This document shows, piece by piece, positions 54,561-63,525 of a DNA stretch of 64,000 nucleotides (position 1 is the stretch's first letter; every line of letters starts with the position of its first letter). The notes beneath the pieces are model-generated. The model ran no database searches. It was not told where the DNA came from and saw nothing but the letters and a program-made list of their open reading frames with translations. The DNA comes from Phyllobates terribilis (taxonomy: Eukaryota), in NCBI RefSeq assembly GCF_046119375.1, contig NW_027362767.1, positions 256,308,001-256,372,000 on the forward strand. The letters are read 5' to 3'. The position numbers and the translations under genes were made by a program.

Positions 54561-55695
54561 TGTAGCGCTGGCGTCCCTGCCCTCTGCTAGGCAGGGACGC
54601 TGCTCCCCTCACCGCTCTGCTGTCAGCGCGCGCTCCGTCCCGGCGTCCTCTCCCCGCTCTGCTGTCAGCGCGCGCTCCGTCCCGGCGTCCTCCTCCTGCT
54701 CTGCTGTCAGCGCGCGCTCCGTCCCGGCGTCCTCCTCCTGCTCTGCTCTCAGCGCGCGCTCCTTCCCGGCCCCTGTGCTTAGGGCGCGCGCGCGCGCGCT
54801 TCCCTCCTCTTAAAGGGGCCGCGCGCGCCGCCCTAAAGAGTCCCCGGCCAATGGCCGGAGGACTTCATCATATATAAGGCACCTCCTCCAAAATGGAGGT
54901 GCCCGAGCAATGTTGTTTGCACCTGTGTCTCACCTGTGCTTCAGCCCTCAGGTCCCGTTGCCAGTTTCCTGCCAGTTACCTGCCAGTTACCTGCCTGATT
55001 CCTGCCTGAATACTTGTTACCTGTCTGCTTGCCTGAGGTCCGACGGTCTGCCTTACTACTCCTGTCAGTCTGTCTAAAGGACCAGCCTGCCCGCTCACCT
55101 GGGAGCGCATATCAGCTACCTGCCTGCTTGCCTGAGGTCTGACGGTCTGCCTTTCTACTCCGGTCAGTCTGTCTATGGACCAGCTTGCCCGCTCACCTGG
55201 GAGCGCTTCTCCGTTATCTGCCTGCTTGCCAGCCCGGAGGCTCCGTTGTCACGTGCTGTGACCACCAGCTATCTCAGAGACTCTTGCCCGCTCACCTGGG
55301 AGCGCATCTCCGTTACCTGCCTGCTTGCCAGCCCGGAGGTCCCGTTGTCACGTGCGGTGACCACCAGCTTTTCCAGAGACTCTTGCCCGCTCACCTGGGA
55401 GCGCTTCTCCGTTACCTACCTGCCTGCCAGCCCGGAGGTTCCGCCGTCACGTGCCGTGACCACCTGCTATTCCAGAGACTCTCGCTTGCTCACCTGGGAG
55501 CACACATCTACCATCTGCCTGCTAGCCTACCCGGAGGCTCTGCCATCACAGGTCGTACCTACCCCTTACCCAGAGACTGCCCTGATCACTTGCCGTAACT
55601 CCCTGTCCGTTCACCCAGAGACTGCCACCCGCTCCCTTACAAGGGCCGCCCCCTTGTATAGTAGCTCAGAGGTTCCGCCTCCCGGACCCGTTACA
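54561..55695 (+). repeat. 5' LTR (1135 bp)
   Basis: Differs from the 3' LTR by about 3 substitutions and one 6-bp (GC)n indel by eye; TATA at 54871. Confidence 0.95.
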
Positions 55696-55708
55696 GTTTG
55701 CTCGGGCC

Positions 55709-58687
55709 ATGGAACCCGGTGGCACCCAAGCTCCCTCGCTCACGGACCTGTGTCATGAACTGTCCCGTCAAAGGTCCCAACAGGAGTCCATCCTGGGTCA
55801 CCTGCGGAATGTCAATACTCGCCTGGATACTCTGACAACACCACCTGCAACTACGGCCAGTACCATGGTATCCTTTTCCGGACCCCGGCTCTCTGCACCT
55901 CCTCGCTTCGGAGGCGACTCCGTCCTGGCTCGGGGCTTCATAAATCAGTGCACCCTGCATTTTGAACTATTGTCCCACCAGTTTAACTCCGACCGAGCCA
56001 AAATTGCATTCATCATGTCCCATCTCACCGGGGAGGCTCTGGCCTGGCTAAATCCTCTATGGGAGAGAGGAGACCCCCTGGTGTCCGACTTGCCTGCCTT
56101 TCTCACGGCTTTCCGGAAAGCCTTCGACGAACCCGGACGGAGGACCTCATCCGCATCATCTCTGCTACGCCTCCGTCAGGGAAGCCTCACCGTGGGTCAA
56201 TATGCCATACGGTTCCGTACCCTTGCCTCGGAGCTGGCCTGGGATAACGAAGCTCTGGTATCCGTCTTCTGGGAGGGTCTGTCCGGCCGTATTAAAGATG
56301 AACTTGCTGGTCGGGACATTCCTACCACTCTCGATGACCTAATAACTCTTGCCACCCGGATTGACCTACGGTTCCAGGAACGTGCCAAAGAGGTCACCCG
56401 TGAAAAGGGGCTTCCACGTCTGGTTCCTACTTTTTTGAAACCCGTCACTCCTTCCGTTTCTCCCCAGGTACACTCTCCTGAGCCTATGCAGGTCGACCAG
56501 ACCAAGATGGTCAAATCCCGTCAGGACTTTCGCCGTGCCGAGGGGAGCTGCTTCTACTGTGGCAGTAAGGAGCATCGGATCCGTGCCTGCCCGGAGAGGT
56601 CGGGAGAACGCCTGTGTCTAGGTTCGCTCAGAGGACTTGATCTAGACAAAAATAAATCCTCTCCATCCCTGCTGCTGTCTGTCTCAATCATCTGCGGGGA
56701 GAATCGTTATTCCGAACTAGCCCAACTTGACTCTGGAGCAGCCGGAAATCTTATTTCACTGTCCCTGGTGGAGAAATACCGCATCCCCACCAAACCTCTG
56801 GCTGTACCCTTGTCTGTTGTTGCCGTGGATGGGGGCCTCTTATCTCGCCCCATCCAATTCATCACCGAATCCATTACTCTGCAAGTGGGTATGCTGCATT
56901 CAGAGAGTATCTCCCTTCACGTTCTGCCTGGACTCTCTCACGCCCTCTTGCTAGGTCTGCCTTGGCTCCAGAGACATGCACCCGTGCTTGACTGGCAAAC
57001 CGGAGAAGTCCTTCGCTGGGGACAAGACTGTCATAAAACCTGTCTGGTTCCCGTCCATTCCGTCCGTCCCTCTCCTATCCCAGCTAATCTACCTGGACTT
57101 CCGATTCCTTATTGGTCTTGTGCTGATGTCTTTGATATGGAGGAGGCAGAGACATTACCACCTCATAGACCATGTGACTGCCCCATCGATCCCGCCAGAG
57201 TAATGCAGGTGGCCCCCGTGAGTCTAAATTGTCTCCCTCCTGGTAAGACGTTCGTATCGGTACCTGATCGGGAGAGGATCCTACACTGGGGTCATTCGTC
57301 TAAACTAGCTGGCCACGCCGGTCAGAAAAAGACCCTCCAGCTTATTACCCGGCACTACTGGTGGCCTAACCTGCACAAGGATGTTATGGACTTTGTTTCT
57401 GCCTGTGTGTCCTGCGCCCGCAACAAGGTTCCGAGACACCTGTCGGCCGGCCGCCTTCTTCCTCTGCCAGCACCTGCTGCCCCCTGGCAGCATATAGCGA
57501 TGGACTTCGTAACTGATCTGCCCGTCTCTGCCGGTTGTACGGTCATTTGGGTGGTCGCTGACCGCTTTTCCAAGATGGCTCACTTCATTCCCCTGCCAGG
57601 TCTTCCGTCTGCACCCGAGCTGGCTAGAGTCTTTATCCGCCACATCTTCCGTCTTCATGGCCTGCCCCGTCACATCGTGTCGGATCGAGGAGTACAGTTC
57701 ACTTCTCGTTTCTGGAGAGCCACTTGTAAATTGCTAGACGTCACTCTGGACTTCTCCTCCGCTTACCACCCACAGTCTAATGGTCAAGTGGAGCGGATCA
57801 ATCAGAACCTGACCAGTTACCTCCGGCACTTCGTTAATGCTCACCATTCTGACTGGGTGGATCTCCTGCCATGGGCCGAATTCTCGTACAACAATCACGA
57901 GAGCGAGTCTTCCTCTATATGGGAGAGTACCCGGTCCGCACTCCTTCTGTCATCCGAGCGTATGAAAAGGCACGCTGACAAAGGACGTCTGGATCCTCCT
58001 CAATTCCGTCCTGGGGATAAAGTCTGGCTCTCGTCCAAATATGTCCGGCTCAAGATCCCTTCCTATAAGTTGGGGCCTCGGTTCATCGGCCCACTGGAGG
58101 TTATCAGTCAGATCAACCCGGTGGCCTATAAATTGAAACTCCCGGCCAACTTACGGATCCCTAACTCCTTCCATGTATCTCTCCTCAAACCTGTGGTACT
58201 TAACTCTTTTTCTAAGTCTACAGGTACGCCTCTTGCTCCGGTTTCTGCTGAGGACGAGTTTGAGGTAGAGAACATTCTTGCCACCAAAAGGGTAAGAGGA
58301 AAGACCTTTTTCTTGGTAGATTGGAGGGGGTTTGGTCCTGAGGAGAGAACGTGGGAGCCCCGGGAGAATATCCATGCCCCTCTCATCCTAGCTAAATTTC
58401 TGTCTGGCCTAAAAAAGGGGGGGCCTAAAGGGGGGGGTACTGTAGCGCTGGCGTCCCTGCCCTCTGCTAGGCAGGGACGCTGCTCCCCTCACCGCTCTGC
58501 TGTCAGCGCGCGCTCCGTCCCGGCGTCCTCTCCCCGCTCTGCTGTCAGCGCGCGCTCCGTCCCGGCGTCCTCCTCCTGCTCTGCTGTCAGCGCGCGCTCC
58601 GTCCCGGCGTCCTCCTCCTTCTCTGCTCTCAGCGCGCGCTCCTTCCCGGCCCCTGTGCTTAGGGCGCGCGCGCTTCCCTCCTCTTAA
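55709..58687 (+). CDS. Gag-protease-integrase-chromodomain polyprotein, 992 aa, no RT/RNase H
   Basis: Retrotransposon gag (PPRFGGD, LLRLRQG), CCHC knuckle CFYCGSKEHRIRAC, protease LDSGA, RT N-terminal stub PPHRPCDCPID joined directly to the integrase HHCC region, D-D35-E (MDF, SDRG, VER), and chromodomain FEVENIL...FLVDWRGFGPEERTWEP. The stop lies inside the 3' LTR. Confidence 0.92.
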   Translation: MEPGGTQAPSLTDLCHELSRQRSQQESILGHLRNVNTRLDTLTTPPATTASTMVSFSGPRLSAPPRFGGDSVLARGFINQCTLHFELLSHQFNSDRAKIAFIMSHLTGEALAWLNPLWERGDPLVSDLPAFLTAFRKAFDEPGRRTSSASSLLRLRQGSLTVGQYAIRFRTLASELAWDNEALVSVFWEGLSGRIKDELAGRDIPTTLDDLITLATRIDLRFQERAKEVTREKGLPRLVPTFLKPVTPSVSPQVHSPEPMQVDQTKMVKSRQDFRRAEGSCFYCGSKEHRIRACPERSGERLCLGSLRGLDLDKNKSSPSLLLSVSIICGENRYSELAQLDSGAAGNLISLSLVEKYRIPTKPLAVPLSVVAVDGGLLSRPIQFITESITLQVGMLHSESISLHVLPGLSHALLLGLPWLQRHAPVLDWQTGEVLRWGQDCHKTCLVPVHSVRPSPIPANLPGLPIPYWSCADVFDMEEAETLPPHRPCDCPIDPARVMQVAPVSLNCLPPGKTFVSVPDRERILHWGHSSKLAGHAGQKKTLQLITRHYWWPNLHKDVMDFVSACVSCARNKVPRHLSAGRLLPLPAPAAPWQHIAMDFVTDLPVSAGCTVIWVVADRFSKMAHFIPLPGLPSAPELARVFIRHIFRLHGLPRHIVSDRGVQFTSRFWRATCKLLDVTLDFSSAYHPQSNGQVERINQNLTSYLRHFVNAHHSDWVDLLPWAEFSYNNHESESSSIWESTRSALLLSSERMKRHADKGRLDPPQFRPGDKVWLSSKYVRLKIPSYKLGPRFIGPLEVISQINPVAYKLKLPANLRIPNSFHVSLLKPVVLNSFSKSTGTPLAPVSAEDEFEVENILATKRVRGKTFFLVDWRGFGPEERTWEPRENIHAPLILAKFLSGLKKGGPKGGGTVALASLPSARQGRCSPHRSAVSARSVPASSPRSAVSARSVPASSSCSAVSARSVPASSSFSALSARSFPAPVLRARALPSS

Positions 58688-59569
58688 AGGGGCCGCGCGC
58701 GCCGCCCTAAAGAGTCCCCGGCCAATGGCCGGAGGACTTCATCATATATAAGGCACCTCCTCCAAAATGGAGGTGCCCGAGCAATGTTGTTTGCACCTGT
58801 GTCTCACCTGTGCTTCAGCCCTCAGGTCCCGTTGCCAGTTTCCTGCCAGTTACCTGCCAGTTACCTGCCTGATTCCTGCCTGAATACTTGTTACCTGTCT
58901 GCTTGCCTGAGGTCCGACGGTCTGCCTTACTACTCCTGTCAGTCTGTCTAAAGGACCAGCCTGCCCGCTCACCTGGGAGCGCATATCAGCTACCTGCCTG
59001 CTTGCCTGAGGTCCGACGGTCTGCCTTTCTACTCCGGTCAGTCTGTCTATGGACCAGCTTGCCCGCTCACCTGGGAGCGCTTCTCCGTTATCTGCCTGCT
59101 TGCCAGCCCGGAGGCTCCGTTGTCACGTGCTGTGACCACCAGCTATCTCAGAGACTCTTGCCCGCTCACCTGGGAGCGCATCTCCGTTACCTGCCTGCTT
59201 GCCAGCCCGGAGGTCCCGTTGTCACGTGCGGTGACCACCAGCTTTTCCAGAGACTCTTGCCCGCTCACCTGGGAGCGCTTCTCCGTTACCTACCTGCCTG
59301 CCAGCCCGGAGGTTCCGCCGTCACGTGCCGTGACCACCTGCTATTCCAGAGACTCTCGCTTGCTCACCTGGGAGCACACATCTACCATCTGCCTGCTAGC
59401 CTACCCGGAGGCTCTGCCATCACAGGTCATACCTACCCCTTACCCAGAGACTGCCCTGATCACTTGCCGTAACTCCCTGTCCGTTCACCCAGAGACTGCC
59501 ACCCGCTCCCTTACAAGGGCCGCCCCCTTGTATAGTAGCTCAGAGGTTCCGCCTCCCGGACCCGTTACA
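58441..59569 (+). repeat. 3' LTR (1129 bp)
   Basis: Direct repeat of 54561-55695, preceded by the PPT. Confidence 0.95.
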
Positions 59570-60304
59570 CTCTGTGTGGCATTGACCTTGTCTCTAATCT
59601 GAGCTGCTGTTAACCTGCGATTTCTGAGGCTGGTGACTTGGATAAACTTATCCTCAGAAGCAGAGGTGACTCTTGGTCTTCCTTTCCTGGGGCGGTCCTC
59701 ATGTGAGCCAGTTTCTTTGTAGCGCTTGATGATTTTTGCAACTGCACTTGGGGACACATTCAAAGTTTGCCCAATTTTTCGCACTGACTGACCTTCATTT
59801 CTTAAAGTAATGATGGCCACTCGTTTTTCTTTACTTAGCTGCTTTTTTCTTGCCATAATACAAATTCTAACAGTCTATTCAGTAGGACTATCAGCTGTGT
59901 ATCCACCAGACTTCTGCACAACACAACTGATGGTCCCAACCCCATTTATAAGGCAAAAAATCCCACTTATTAAACCTGACAGGGCACACCTGTGAAGTGA
60001 AAACCATTTCCGGTGACTACCTCTTGAAGCTCATCAAGAGAATGCCAAGAGTGTGCAAAGCAGTCATCAAAGCAAAAGGTGGCTACTTTGCAGAACCTAG
60101 AATATAAGACCTATTTTCATTTGTTTCACACTTTTTTGTTAAGTATATAATTCCACATGTGTTAATTCATAGTTTTGATGCCTTCAGTGTGAATGTACAA
60201 TTTTCAAAGTCATGAAAATACAGAAAAATCTTTAAATGAGAAGGTGTGTCCAAACGTTTGGTCTGTACTGTATATACATGGTGTACATACAAACATGGCT
60301 TATA

Positions 60305-62011: not shown

Positions 62012-63525
62012 CCCTGCTCAAAAAAATAAAGGAAACACTCAAATAACACATCCTAGATCTGAATGAATGAAATATTCTCATTGAATACTTTGTTCTGTAC
62101 AAAATTGAATGTGCTGACAACAAAATCACACAAAAATCATCAATGTAAATCAAATTTATTAACCAATGGAGGCCTGGATTTGGAGTCACCGTCAAAATTA
62201 AAGTGGAAAAACACACTACAGGCTGATCCAACTTTGATGTAATGTCCTTAAAACAAGTCAAAATGAGGCTCAGTATTGTGTGTGGCCTCCACGTGCTTGT
62301 ATGACCTCCCTACAATGCCTGAGCATGTTCCTGATGAGGATGCAGATGGTTTCCTGTGGGATCTCCTACCAGACCTGGACTAAAGCATCCACCAACTCCT
62401 GGACAGTCTGTTGTGACATTGGTGGGTGGAGCGAGACATGATGTCCCAGATGTGCTCAATCGGATTCAGATCTGGGGAACGGGCGGGCCAGTCCATAGCT
62501 TCAATGCCTTCATCTTGCAGGAACTGCTGACACACTCCAGCCACAGGAGGTCTGGCATTGTCCTGCATTAGGAGGAACCCAGGGCTAACCGCACCAGCAT
62601 ATGATCTCACAAGGGGTTTGAGGATCTCATCTCGGTACCTAATGGCAGTCAGGCTACCTCTGGCGAGCACATGGAGGGCTGTGCGGCCCTCCAAAGAAAT
62701 GCCACCCCACACCATTACTGACCCACTGCCAAACCAGTCATGCTGAAGGATGTTCGGTTTGAACCTGCTTTCATCTGTGAAGAGCACAGGGCGCCAGTGG
62801 TGACTTTGCCAATCCTGGTGTTCTGTGGCAAATGCCAAGCGTCCTGCACGGTGTTGGGCTGTGAGCACAACCACCCTCTGTGGACTTCGGGCTCTCATAC
62901 CACCCTCATGGAGTCTGTTTCTAATCGTTTGTGCAGACACATGCACATTTGTGGCCTGCTGGAGGTCATTTTGCAGGGCTCTGGAAGTGCTCCTCCTGTT
63001 CCTCCTTGCACAAAGGCGGAGGTAGCAGTCCTGCTGCTGGGTTGTTGCCCTCCTACGGCCCCCTCCACGTCTCCTGGTGTACTGGCCTGTCTCCTGGCAG
63101 CGCCTCCAGCCTCTGGACACTACACTGACAGACACAGCAAACCTTCTTGCCACAGCTCGCACTGATGTGCCATCTTGGATGAGCTGCACTATCTGAGCAA
63201 CTTCTGTGGGTTGTAGAGTCCGTCTCATGCTACCATGAGTGTGAAAGCACAAACAACATTCAAAAGTGACCAAAACATCAGCCAGAAAGCATTGGTACTG
63301 AGATGTGGTCTGTGGTCCCCACCTGCAGAACCACTCCTTTATTGAGTGTGTCTTGATAATTGCCAATAATTTCCATCTATTATCTATTCCATTTGCACAA
63401 CAGCATGTGAAATTGATTGTCAATCTGTGTTGCTTCCTAAGTGGACAGTTTGATTTCACAGAAGTTTGCTTCACTTGGAGTTATATTCTGTTGTTTAAGT
63501 GTTCCCTTTATTTTTTTGAGCAGTG
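62012..63525 (-). mobile_element. Tc1 (DD34E) with an internal in-frame deletion
   Basis: TIR C(A/C)CTGCTCAAAAAAATAAAGG(G/A)AACACT, TA flanks; ORF 62380-63474 has [15 protein letters not shown] and [12 protein letters not shown] (34 spacing), with a deletion after DESRF. Confidence 0.88.

What the first reader, a model, noticed from the sequence alone, without database searches (positions are those of the whole stretch)
55709..58687. Young chromovirus with RT and RNase H cleanly deleted yet a fully open 992-codon ORF
Seen: the RT stub PPHRPCDCPID is fused in frame (near 57190) to the pre-integrase region, and a second apparent in-frame deletion lies after the integrase core (near 57915). Gag, CCHC, protease DSG, integrase HHCC and D-D35-E, and the chromodomain are all intact. 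The LTRs differ by about 3 substitutions and one indel; TSD, PPT and PBS are intact. Inference: this may be a non-autonomous lineage that supplies its own capsid, protease and integrase and borrows RT in trans. It is also the architecture from which Gag-derived host genes (PEG10/RTL class) arose.
Basis: partly seen in the sequence, partly recalled or inferred. Interest (0 to 1): 0.7.

Follow-up and report, generated by a model that had tools for sequence, protein, structure and literature searches.

The report
Frame-locked parasitic amphibian jumping gene
A jumping gene that has lost its copying enzyme has still spread to about 870 places in this genome, likely on enzymes borrowed from a full-length relative, and every inherited cut leaves its one long reading frame open, which likely means its RNA has to be translated to be copied.

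Summary
Observation confirmed; this is a family, not one broken copy. The RT/RNase H junction occurs exactly 748 times in the genome, with distinct 5-bp TSDs and 0.1-0.2% LTR divergence. The lineage is one clade nested in a ~9,700-copy RT-bearing Tf1/sushi-type chromovirus family. (1) One extra base in the -1 slippery site (872 copies) fuses gag and pol, and the predicted frameshift stimulator is decaying. (2) About half the copies (437) also lost the integrase core, in frame, and still integrate cleanly, so integrase as well as RT comes in trans. All inherited indels keep one frame; 0 of 131 inherited substitutions are stops (P~0.01). Gag+protease are partly constrained (omega~0.5); the integrase remnants are not significantly so. 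An unrelated lineage (P0043, 47% identical) shows the same layout. Likely mechanism: Gag-protease made in cis plus translation to the 3' LTR, as in mouse IAP 1Δ1; untested here. Chance survival is not excluded. No sign of domestication. A sequence look-up of this scan's earlier notes found no look-alike; other enzyme-less families were noted.

The parts
54556..54560 (+). 5' target-site duplication CTCTG
   Evidence: matches 59570-59574
54561..55695 (+). 5' LTR (TG...CA, 1,135 bp), with 42-bp repeats in the predicted U3 and 99-bp repeats downstream
54871..54878 (+). TATA-like box; predicted transcription start about 30 nt downstream
   Evidence: sequence; spacing of 30 nt printed for L064; start not mapped
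54901..54910 (+). Predicted self-primer: 10 nt complementary to the PBS
   Evidence: paired with the PBS in both MFE and centroid folds; complement present in the own LTR in 90 of 93 copies
55698..55707 (+). PBS of self-priming (Tf1/sushi) type
   Evidence: same PBS in RT-bearing copies
55709..58687 (+). Single fused ORF, 992 aa: Gag-PR-IN remnant-chromodomain-LTR tail
55861..55867 (+). Junction of a 39-bp in-frame gag deletion (7-bp microhomology)
   Evidence: joint also in public contigs
55937..56356 (+). Capsid (Ty3_capsid / Retrotrans_gag)
56546..56596 (+). CCHC zinc knuckle
   Evidence: below curated cut-off; motif in 95 of 95 sampled copies
56602..56609 (+). Former -1 slippery site carrying one extra base (56606), which fuses gag and pol
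   Evidence: 872 exact pattern matches; 20 of 20 copies found with the intact site carry RT
56615..56663 (+). Decaying remnant of the predicted frameshift stimulator (9-bp stem; possible pseudoknot)
   Evidence: nearly invariant in 53 RT-bearing copies, one compensatory pair in 2 of them; altered in all deleted types; fold -15 to -17 versus about -12 kcal/mol
56645..56995 (+). Aspartic protease (LDSG)
   Evidence: LDSG in 93 of 95 copies
57184..57191 (+). Junction of the 1,323-bp in-frame RT + RNase H deletion (8-bp microhomology)
57266..57430 (+). Integrase HHCC zinc-binding domain
57479..57909 (+). Integrase core with D, D, E but without its last conserved segment; 57506-57994 is absent altogether in the type-B sister subfamily
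57910..57917 (+). Junction of the 108-bp in-frame integrase deletion (microhomology)
   Evidence: 277 exact matches
58013..58195 (+). Integrase C-terminal SH3 (GPY/F-type; label recalled) domain
58259..58399 (+). Chromodomain
58427..58437 (+). Polypurine tract
   Evidence: sequence
58441..59569 (+). 3' LTR (1,129 bp); the ORF ends inside it
59570..59574 (+). 3' target-site duplication CTCTG

Best explanation
This is a young copy of a ~870-copy deletion-derived chromovirus family that lacks reverse transcriptase, carries a truncated integrase and has gag fused to pol in one frame; it is likely copied and integrated by the enzymes of its ~9,700-copy full-length parent, and the open frame is likely kept because its own Gag-protease and translation along the whole RNA help that RNA in cis. 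Steps: (1) shown: one ancestor gained a base in the slippery site and lost RT/RNase H by a microhomology deletion, and later lost parts of integrase, always in frame; (2) predicted: the RNA starts in the LTR and primes itself, so it needs no tRNA; (3) inferred: the fused protein is cut by its own protease, and the released Gag binds its own RNA and co-assembles with helper Gag and Gag-Pol; (4) inferred: helper RT and integrase copy and insert it; (5) inferred: the 3' half is kept open as a translated passenger, probably to spare the RNA from premature-stop decay, while its protein sequence drifts.
For: Copy counts 748, 872, 437, 277, reversed-pattern controls 0. 0 of 96 sampled copies carry RT. 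One clade, support 100/100, nested in the parent. Parent present and young: 19 of 33 full-length copies among 40 sampled have open gag and pol, youngest LTR pair 0/1057. Core-less type B has perfect TSDs in 42 of 46. Type-C copies carry parent alleles at the first 6 and family alleles at 41-42 of the other 42 diagnostic sites, as expected from recombination with the helper. All four inherited deletions are in frame and the one fixed 1-base indel offsets the -1 shift, against 3 of 17 private parent indels in frame. 0 stops in 131 inherited substitutions, expected 3.8%, P=0.007-0.011. Gag+PR 38N:30S, omega~0.53, p=0.007; RT stub 13N:0S. Stimulator decay. Same layout in an independent lineage, P0043. 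Precedent: IAP 1Δ1 fusion acts in cis (PMC6466679, PMC7411935, passages).
Against: No expression, translation or particle data. Microhomology deletions here are in frame 42-50% of the time by chance, so four in a row is P~0.04 alone. Stops in inherited versus private changes: p=0.08 within the family. Constraint is weak (overall omega~0.7; integrase parts 0.68, p=0.12; capsid alone not significant), and synonymous 'novel' alleles may have come in by recombination from parent subfamilies not among the 53 sampled. The parent tolerates a gag stop with a longer 3' tail, so decay avoidance needs an extra assumption. Ty1 shows no cis preference (PMC3945221, passages). The recombinants could be DNA-level. 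P0043's DNA, LTRs and copy number were not seen.
Confidence: 0.6

Rival explanations
1. Only the act of translation matters: the frame keeps ribosomes on the RNA and avoids premature-stop decay, and the protein itself does nothing; helper Gag packages the RNA.
For: Type B has lost conserved residues in the integrase remnants (GPRFIGP intact in 1 of 46) with no stop; the RT stub is 13N:0S yet open; the lock removed the gag stop, which a Gag-only role would not need.
Against: Gag+PR omega~0.53, p=0.007; CCHC 95 of 95 and LDSG 93 of 95 retained; Gag and PR are the parts never deleted here or in P0043 and P0127.
Confidence: 0.17
2. Chance survival: one lucky master copy amplified in trans; in-frame cuts reflect codon-phased microhomology and the lack of stops reflects few generations.
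For: In-frame share of 6-8-bp repeats is 42-50%; the element has likely passed through few master copies; inherited N/S 1.67 is not far from neutral 2.4.
Against: The 1-base insertion sits in the 7-nt slippery site; P(0 stops)~0.01; a second lineage (P0043) and a single contig (P0127) also fuse the frames at the same spot.
Confidence: 0.17
3. One reading: the element supplies capsid, protease and a working integrase and borrows only RT.
For: D, D and E motifs in 45 of 45 type-A copies.
Against: The SPF..YG..P segment conserved from Ty3 to foamy-virus integrase is deleted in all type-A copies; core 8N:4S, not below neutral; 437 copies without the core spread as well.
Confidence: 0.04
4. A step towards a domesticated PEG10/RTL-like host gene or restriction factor.
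For: Gag-PR retained without RT resembles PEG10's domain content (recalled).
Against: Hundreds of dispersed, LTR-flanked, sub-0.3%-diverged insertions; no single fixed locus; the window copy sits in a Tc1-type transposon remnant.
Confidence: 0.02

Closest known systems
Mouse IAP 1Δ1 subtype (PMC6466679 and PMC7411935, passages read; the primary paper, Saito et al. 2008, was not held)
   Same: Non-autonomous; an internal deletion yields one gag-pol fusion ORF; enzymes come in trans; prolific new insertions; the fusion protein was reported to act in cis.
   Different: IAP is an endogenous retrovirus and one 1.9-kb deletion makes the fusion. Here a Ty3/gypsy chromovirus is fused by a 1-base insertion at the slippery site, keeps whole capsid and protease, has four separate in-frame deletions and reads into the 3' LTR. 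A cis effect is untested here.
Tf1/sushi-group chromoviruses of vertebrates (PMC6317226, PMC3601003, passages)
   Same: PR-RT-RH-IN-chromodomain order in the parent, self-priming PBS, TG...TTACA LTR ends, 5-bp TSD.
   Different: The window lineage has no RT/RNase H and no frameshift.
Plant semi-autonomous LTR elements: TR-GAG and sugar-beet families (PMC13570524, passages), RLG_Quinta (PMC11302176, abstract)
   Same: Non-autonomous families that keep Gag (and PR) and use a partner's enzymes.
   Different: Those keep Gag/PR ORFs or patchy decayed pol remnants; here pol remnants stay in one open frame in 91 of 95 sampled copies.
PEG10 (PMC5009743, passage)
   Same: Ty3/gypsy origin; a gag-pol frameshift with a pseudoknot, as predicted for the parent here.
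   Different: PEG10 is a single immobile host gene that keeps frameshifting; this is a mobile multi-copy parasite that abolished it.

Membership tests
Ty3/gypsy chromovirus, Tf1/sushi group | Domain order PR-RT-RH-IN with C-terminal chromodomain | tested here: met
   Met by the parent pol (L051); the window copy keeps the order minus RT-RH
Ty3/gypsy chromovirus, Tf1/sushi group | Self-priming PBS complementary to the RNA 5' end | tested here: met
   10-nt complement about 30 nt after the TATA box, 90 of 93 copies; RNA start and priming not mapped
Ty3/gypsy chromovirus, Tf1/sushi group | RT phylogeny places it in the clade | not tested
   No RT tree with named references was built; best named homologues are frog and fish gypsy/Tf2-like proteins
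Autonomous LTR retrotransposon | Encodes RT, RNase H and an intact integrase | tested here: not met
Non-autonomous LTR retrotransposon family | Shared lesions at many loci with different TSDs | tested here: met
   748 junction matches; perfect TSDs in 40 of 45 type A (39 distinct) and 42 of 46 type B (36 distinct)
Non-autonomous LTR retrotransposon family | Partner with shared LTR ends, PBS and PPT and recent activity | tested here: met
   LTR identity up to 97.6%, same PBS and PPT, open gag and pol, young LTR pairs
IAP 1Δ1-like cis-acting fusion | Single gag-pol fusion ORF created by the lesion | tested here: met
IAP 1Δ1-like cis-acting fusion | The fusion protein promotes mobilisation in cis only | not testable with these tools
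   Only indirect selection statistics
TR-GAG | Keeps Gag (and PR) only, no pol enzyme domains | tested here: not met
   Integrase parts and chromodomain remain in frame
PEG10/RTL domesticated genes | Single, immobile locus without functional LTRs | tested here: not met

The most novel reading that the evidence does not exclude
Defective vertebrate chromoviruses obey a frame rule: they can shed RT, RNase H and integrase but spread only if one ribosome can run from the gag start into the 3' LTR, so independent lineages converge on locking the -1 frameshift and cutting only in frame. This would be a recurrent class of frame-locked LTR parasites and natural evidence that translation in cis gates LTR-retrotransposon RNA into particles.
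Probability: 0.3. Interest if true: 0.72.

Novelty: new variant of a known kind. Interest (0 to 1): 0.52.

Why it matters
Whether LTR-retrotransposon RNA needs to be translated in cis to be mobilised is unsettled: yes for IAP 1Δ1, no for Ty1 (passages in PMC6466679, PMC3945221). This family is a natural deletion series of about 870 copies beside a live parent, with a locked frameshift, a decaying stimulator and two integrase states, so the question can be tested with genomes and Ribo-seq alone. It also marks which parts of a sushi-type RNA are dispensable in cis, and shows that RT-based annotation would miss a prolific family in a 10.6-Gb genome.

Tried and rejected
Assembly artefact or post-insertion deletion: rejected by hundreds of dispersed junction copies and by the same joints in public contigs of three organism labels and two studies. 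Expression: the look-up of sequencing runs listed no holder on record as RNA, so nothing is concluded. Runs X5 and X8 (organisms B, C) and X18 showed none of the joints; contigs cannot show absence. A genome-wide count of RT-less copies with an intact slippery site could not be run; in the sample, 80 of 80 copies picked by the RT junction carry the extra base, so the order of the lock and the RT loss is unresolved. RT-less fish and frog proteins (10 of 147 screened, plus P0115, P0119) were not counted as convergent: those looked up are NCBI/UniRef gene models and may be spliced; P0151 and P0181 etc. were not checked at DNA level. P0043 is not from this genome (best 51% identity). The 5' leader is not unusually stable overall (z=+3.8); only the PBS helix is claimed. 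No AATAAA-type signal was found in the LTR. No tRNA genes in the window. The pseudoknot's second stem is read by eye, not computed. No structure prediction was run. Rows dropped: L142 (5'-truncated) before typing; L127-L129 (same TSD as L126) before the selection counts; 7 of 40 parent loci that were not full length; two of the 17 private parent indels are one mis-aligned ~0.9-kb insertion, and some 1-bp indels may be assembly errors. Seven paper searches (listings only) showed no report of a frame-locked RT-less vertebrate chromovirus; subscription journals, Repbase and supplements were not seen.

Full report
1. Observation. The element runs 54561-59569: LTRs of 1,135 and 1,129 bp (3 substitutions, one 6-bp indel), an internal region of 2,745 bp and TSD CTCTG. 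The ORF 55709-58687 has 992 codons, about 80 of them inside the 3' LTR. Pfam finds capsid, CCHC, protease, HHCC, rve, SH3 and chromodomain but no RT or RNase H. The best named homologues are gypsy/Tf2-like proteins of frogs and fish; the genome is 10.57 Gb, so an amphibian host is inferred.

2. It is a family. All 40 scored hits of the internal region were full length and about 100% identical; 24 of 30 fetched loci could be parsed and all 24 had matching TSDs, at 22 distinct sites. Exact genome-wide counts: RT junction 748, fused slippery site 872, 108-bp junction 277, type-B junction 437; reversed-pattern controls were 0. I fetched 80 of the first 100 listed junction hits on contig C1, plus the 16 listed fused-site hits that lacked the exact junction. 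None of the 96 carried RT: 45 type A (window-like), 46 type B, 4 type C, 1 truncated. LTR-pair divergence averaged 0.19% (A) and 0.11% (B). The 39-bp and 1,323-bp joints occur in public contigs labelled organisms A, D and E, the type-B joint in A and D, the 108-bp joint in E, so the lesions are not assembly errors.

3. The partner. All 20 copies found with an intact slippery site are full length, with YLDD/YIDD-bearing pol overlapping gag in the -1 frame. A pattern at the RT start matches 9,747 places. Of 40 sampled, 33 are full length and 19 have open gag and pol; mean LTR divergence is 0.55% and the youngest pair is 0/1057. The nearest subfamily shares up to 97.6% LTR identity. On an 880-column tree of 82 copies (all 53 parents, 29 deleted copies) the deleted copies form one clade (100/100) inside the parent, on a stem of 0.042 (midpoint root, bootstrap not fully settled).

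4. The lesions. Relative to RT-bearing copies the window copy has: 39 bp missing in gag (55861, 7-bp microhomology); one extra base in the slippery heptamer (56606), which puts gag and pol in one frame; 1,323 bp missing over RT and RNase H (57184, 8-bp microhomology); 108 bp missing in integrase (57910). The last removes the SPF..YG..P segment that aligns with the end of the Ty3 (7q5b) and foamy-virus integrase cores. Type B lacks 57506-57994, that is the core after its first Asp, again in frame, yet 42 of 46 have perfect 5-bp TSDs. Integrase therefore comes in trans (inferred, strongly). Read-through into the 3' LTR is ancestral. A 9-bp stem 5 nt after the slippery site is nearly invariant in 53 parent copies, with one compensatory change in 2, and is altered in types A and B, as expected once shifting is no longer needed. 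The PBS pairs with 54901-54910, about 30 nt after a TATA box, the self-priming described for Tf1/sushi elements (PMC6317226, passages). Type C has parent alleles at the first 6 diagnostic sites and family alleles at 41-42 of the next 42: a recombinant with the helper, by co-packaging or at DNA level.

5. Is the open frame selected? The ORF reaches the PPT region in 42 of 45 A, 45 of 46 B and 4 of 4 C. Counting alleles absent from 53 parent copies: inherited (2 or more copies) 49 S, 82 N, 0 stops; private 41 S, 105 N, 4 stops; parent shared 303 S, 106 N. Neutral expectation from the private spectrum is N/S 2.41 with 3.8% stops, giving P(0 stops)=0.007-0.011; Gag+PR omega~0.53 (p=0.007), integrase parts 0.68 (p=0.12), RT stub 13N:0S. 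So constraint is much relaxed against the parent but is not absent. Against: the direct inherited-versus-private stop test gives p=0.08 (0.03 with parent singletons pooled); capsid and protease are not significant alone; 42-50% of 6-8-bp repeat pairs are in frame by chance; recombination with unsampled parents could add synonymous alleles.

6. Convergence. P0043 (7 unnamed Logan sequences) is one frame of Gag, protease, no RT/RNase H, HHCC, no core, then a tail and an apparent LTR read-through. It is 47% identical to the window ORF and absent from this genome; a stand-alone Gag 87% identical to it stops at the fusion point. P0127 is a single similar record. Their DNA was not seen. Fish gene models with similar gaps were not counted.

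7. Mechanism. Shown: ancestry, lesions, amplification, a live partner. Predicted: self-priming, stimulator decay. Inferred: the fused protein is processed by its own protease, Gag binds its own RNA and co-assembles with helper proteins, helper RT and integrase finish the cycle, and the 3' half stays open as a translated passenger that protects the RNA (0.6). Rivals: translation alone (0.17), chance (0.17), own integrase (0.04), domestication (0.02). The parent's own gag stop is a difficulty for the RNA-decay part.

8. Known comparisons. The closest working model is mouse IAP 1Δ1, whose deletion makes a gag-pol fusion that acts in cis while enzymes come in trans (PMC6466679 and PMC7411935, passages; the primary paper was not held). 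Ty1 shows no cis preference (PMC3945221, passages). Plant TR-GAG and related families keep Gag/PR or patchy pol remnants (PMC13570524, passages; PMC11302176, abstract). Defective elements outpacing their helpers is known (PMC10924933, abstract). PEG10 keeps frameshifting (PMC5009743, passage). LTR end motifs fit the Sushi group (PMC3601003, passages). Seven searches listed no frame-locked RT-less vertebrate chromovirus; the library lacks most subscription journals and repeat databases, and no supplements were read. Earlier scan notes describe other enzyme-less LTR families (unchecked), none like this sequence.

9. Verdict. Real, and more structured than first read: a new variant of a known kind. 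The non-autonomous family is established; integrase independence is refuted; selection for the open frame is probable; the cis mechanism is untested. Interest 0.52.

Noticed in passing
P0043 and cluster members P0121-P0126 (unnamed Logan contigs); P0133: Independent one-frame Gag-PR-IN(HHCC)-tail protein without RT/RNase H or integrase core, 47% identical to the window ORF. A stand-alone Gag 87% identical to it ends at the same spot, so its parent uses two frames.
   Followed up: partly
P0127 (unnamed ENA contig, 3,091 bp): One-frame Gag-PR-(unmatched stretch)-chromodomain protein, fused at the slippery-site position; a single record.
   Followed up: partly
G000:C1:187482496-187498381 (L076, L077); also L083, L116, L138; parent pairs L049/L050, L061/L062: Head-to-tail tandem arrays sharing LTRs, up to five units; the five-unit array has the same 5-mer TTCGG at its outer ends.
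   Followed up: partly
L126-L129 (G000:C1:678-680 Mb): Four type-B copies with the same TSD, probably a segmental duplication of one insertion.
   Followed up: no
L091 at window-equivalent 58293; L052; L193: Nested insertions of about 0.5-0.9 kb inside family and parent copies; not identified.
   Followed up: no
window 50290-51135, 59485-59874, 62380-63480 and surroundings: The flanks are a patchwork of Tc1-type transposase remnants with inverted repeats; the element is inserted into one.
   Followed up: partly
window 47500-49700: Long (TA)-rich minisatellite with a unit of about 30-40 bp, also seen as short copies between the Tc1 remnants.
   Followed up: no
LTRs of all sampled copies: LTR length varies from about 880 to 1,330 bp through 42-bp and 99-bp repeat units, which moves the ORF's stop, so the C-terminal tail is not fixed.
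   Followed up: partly
L044:1717-1956, 1729-2040, 2365-2501 (joints): Other skips seen in public contigs (238, 310, 135 bp and others), possibly further deletion families or related elements.
   Followed up: no
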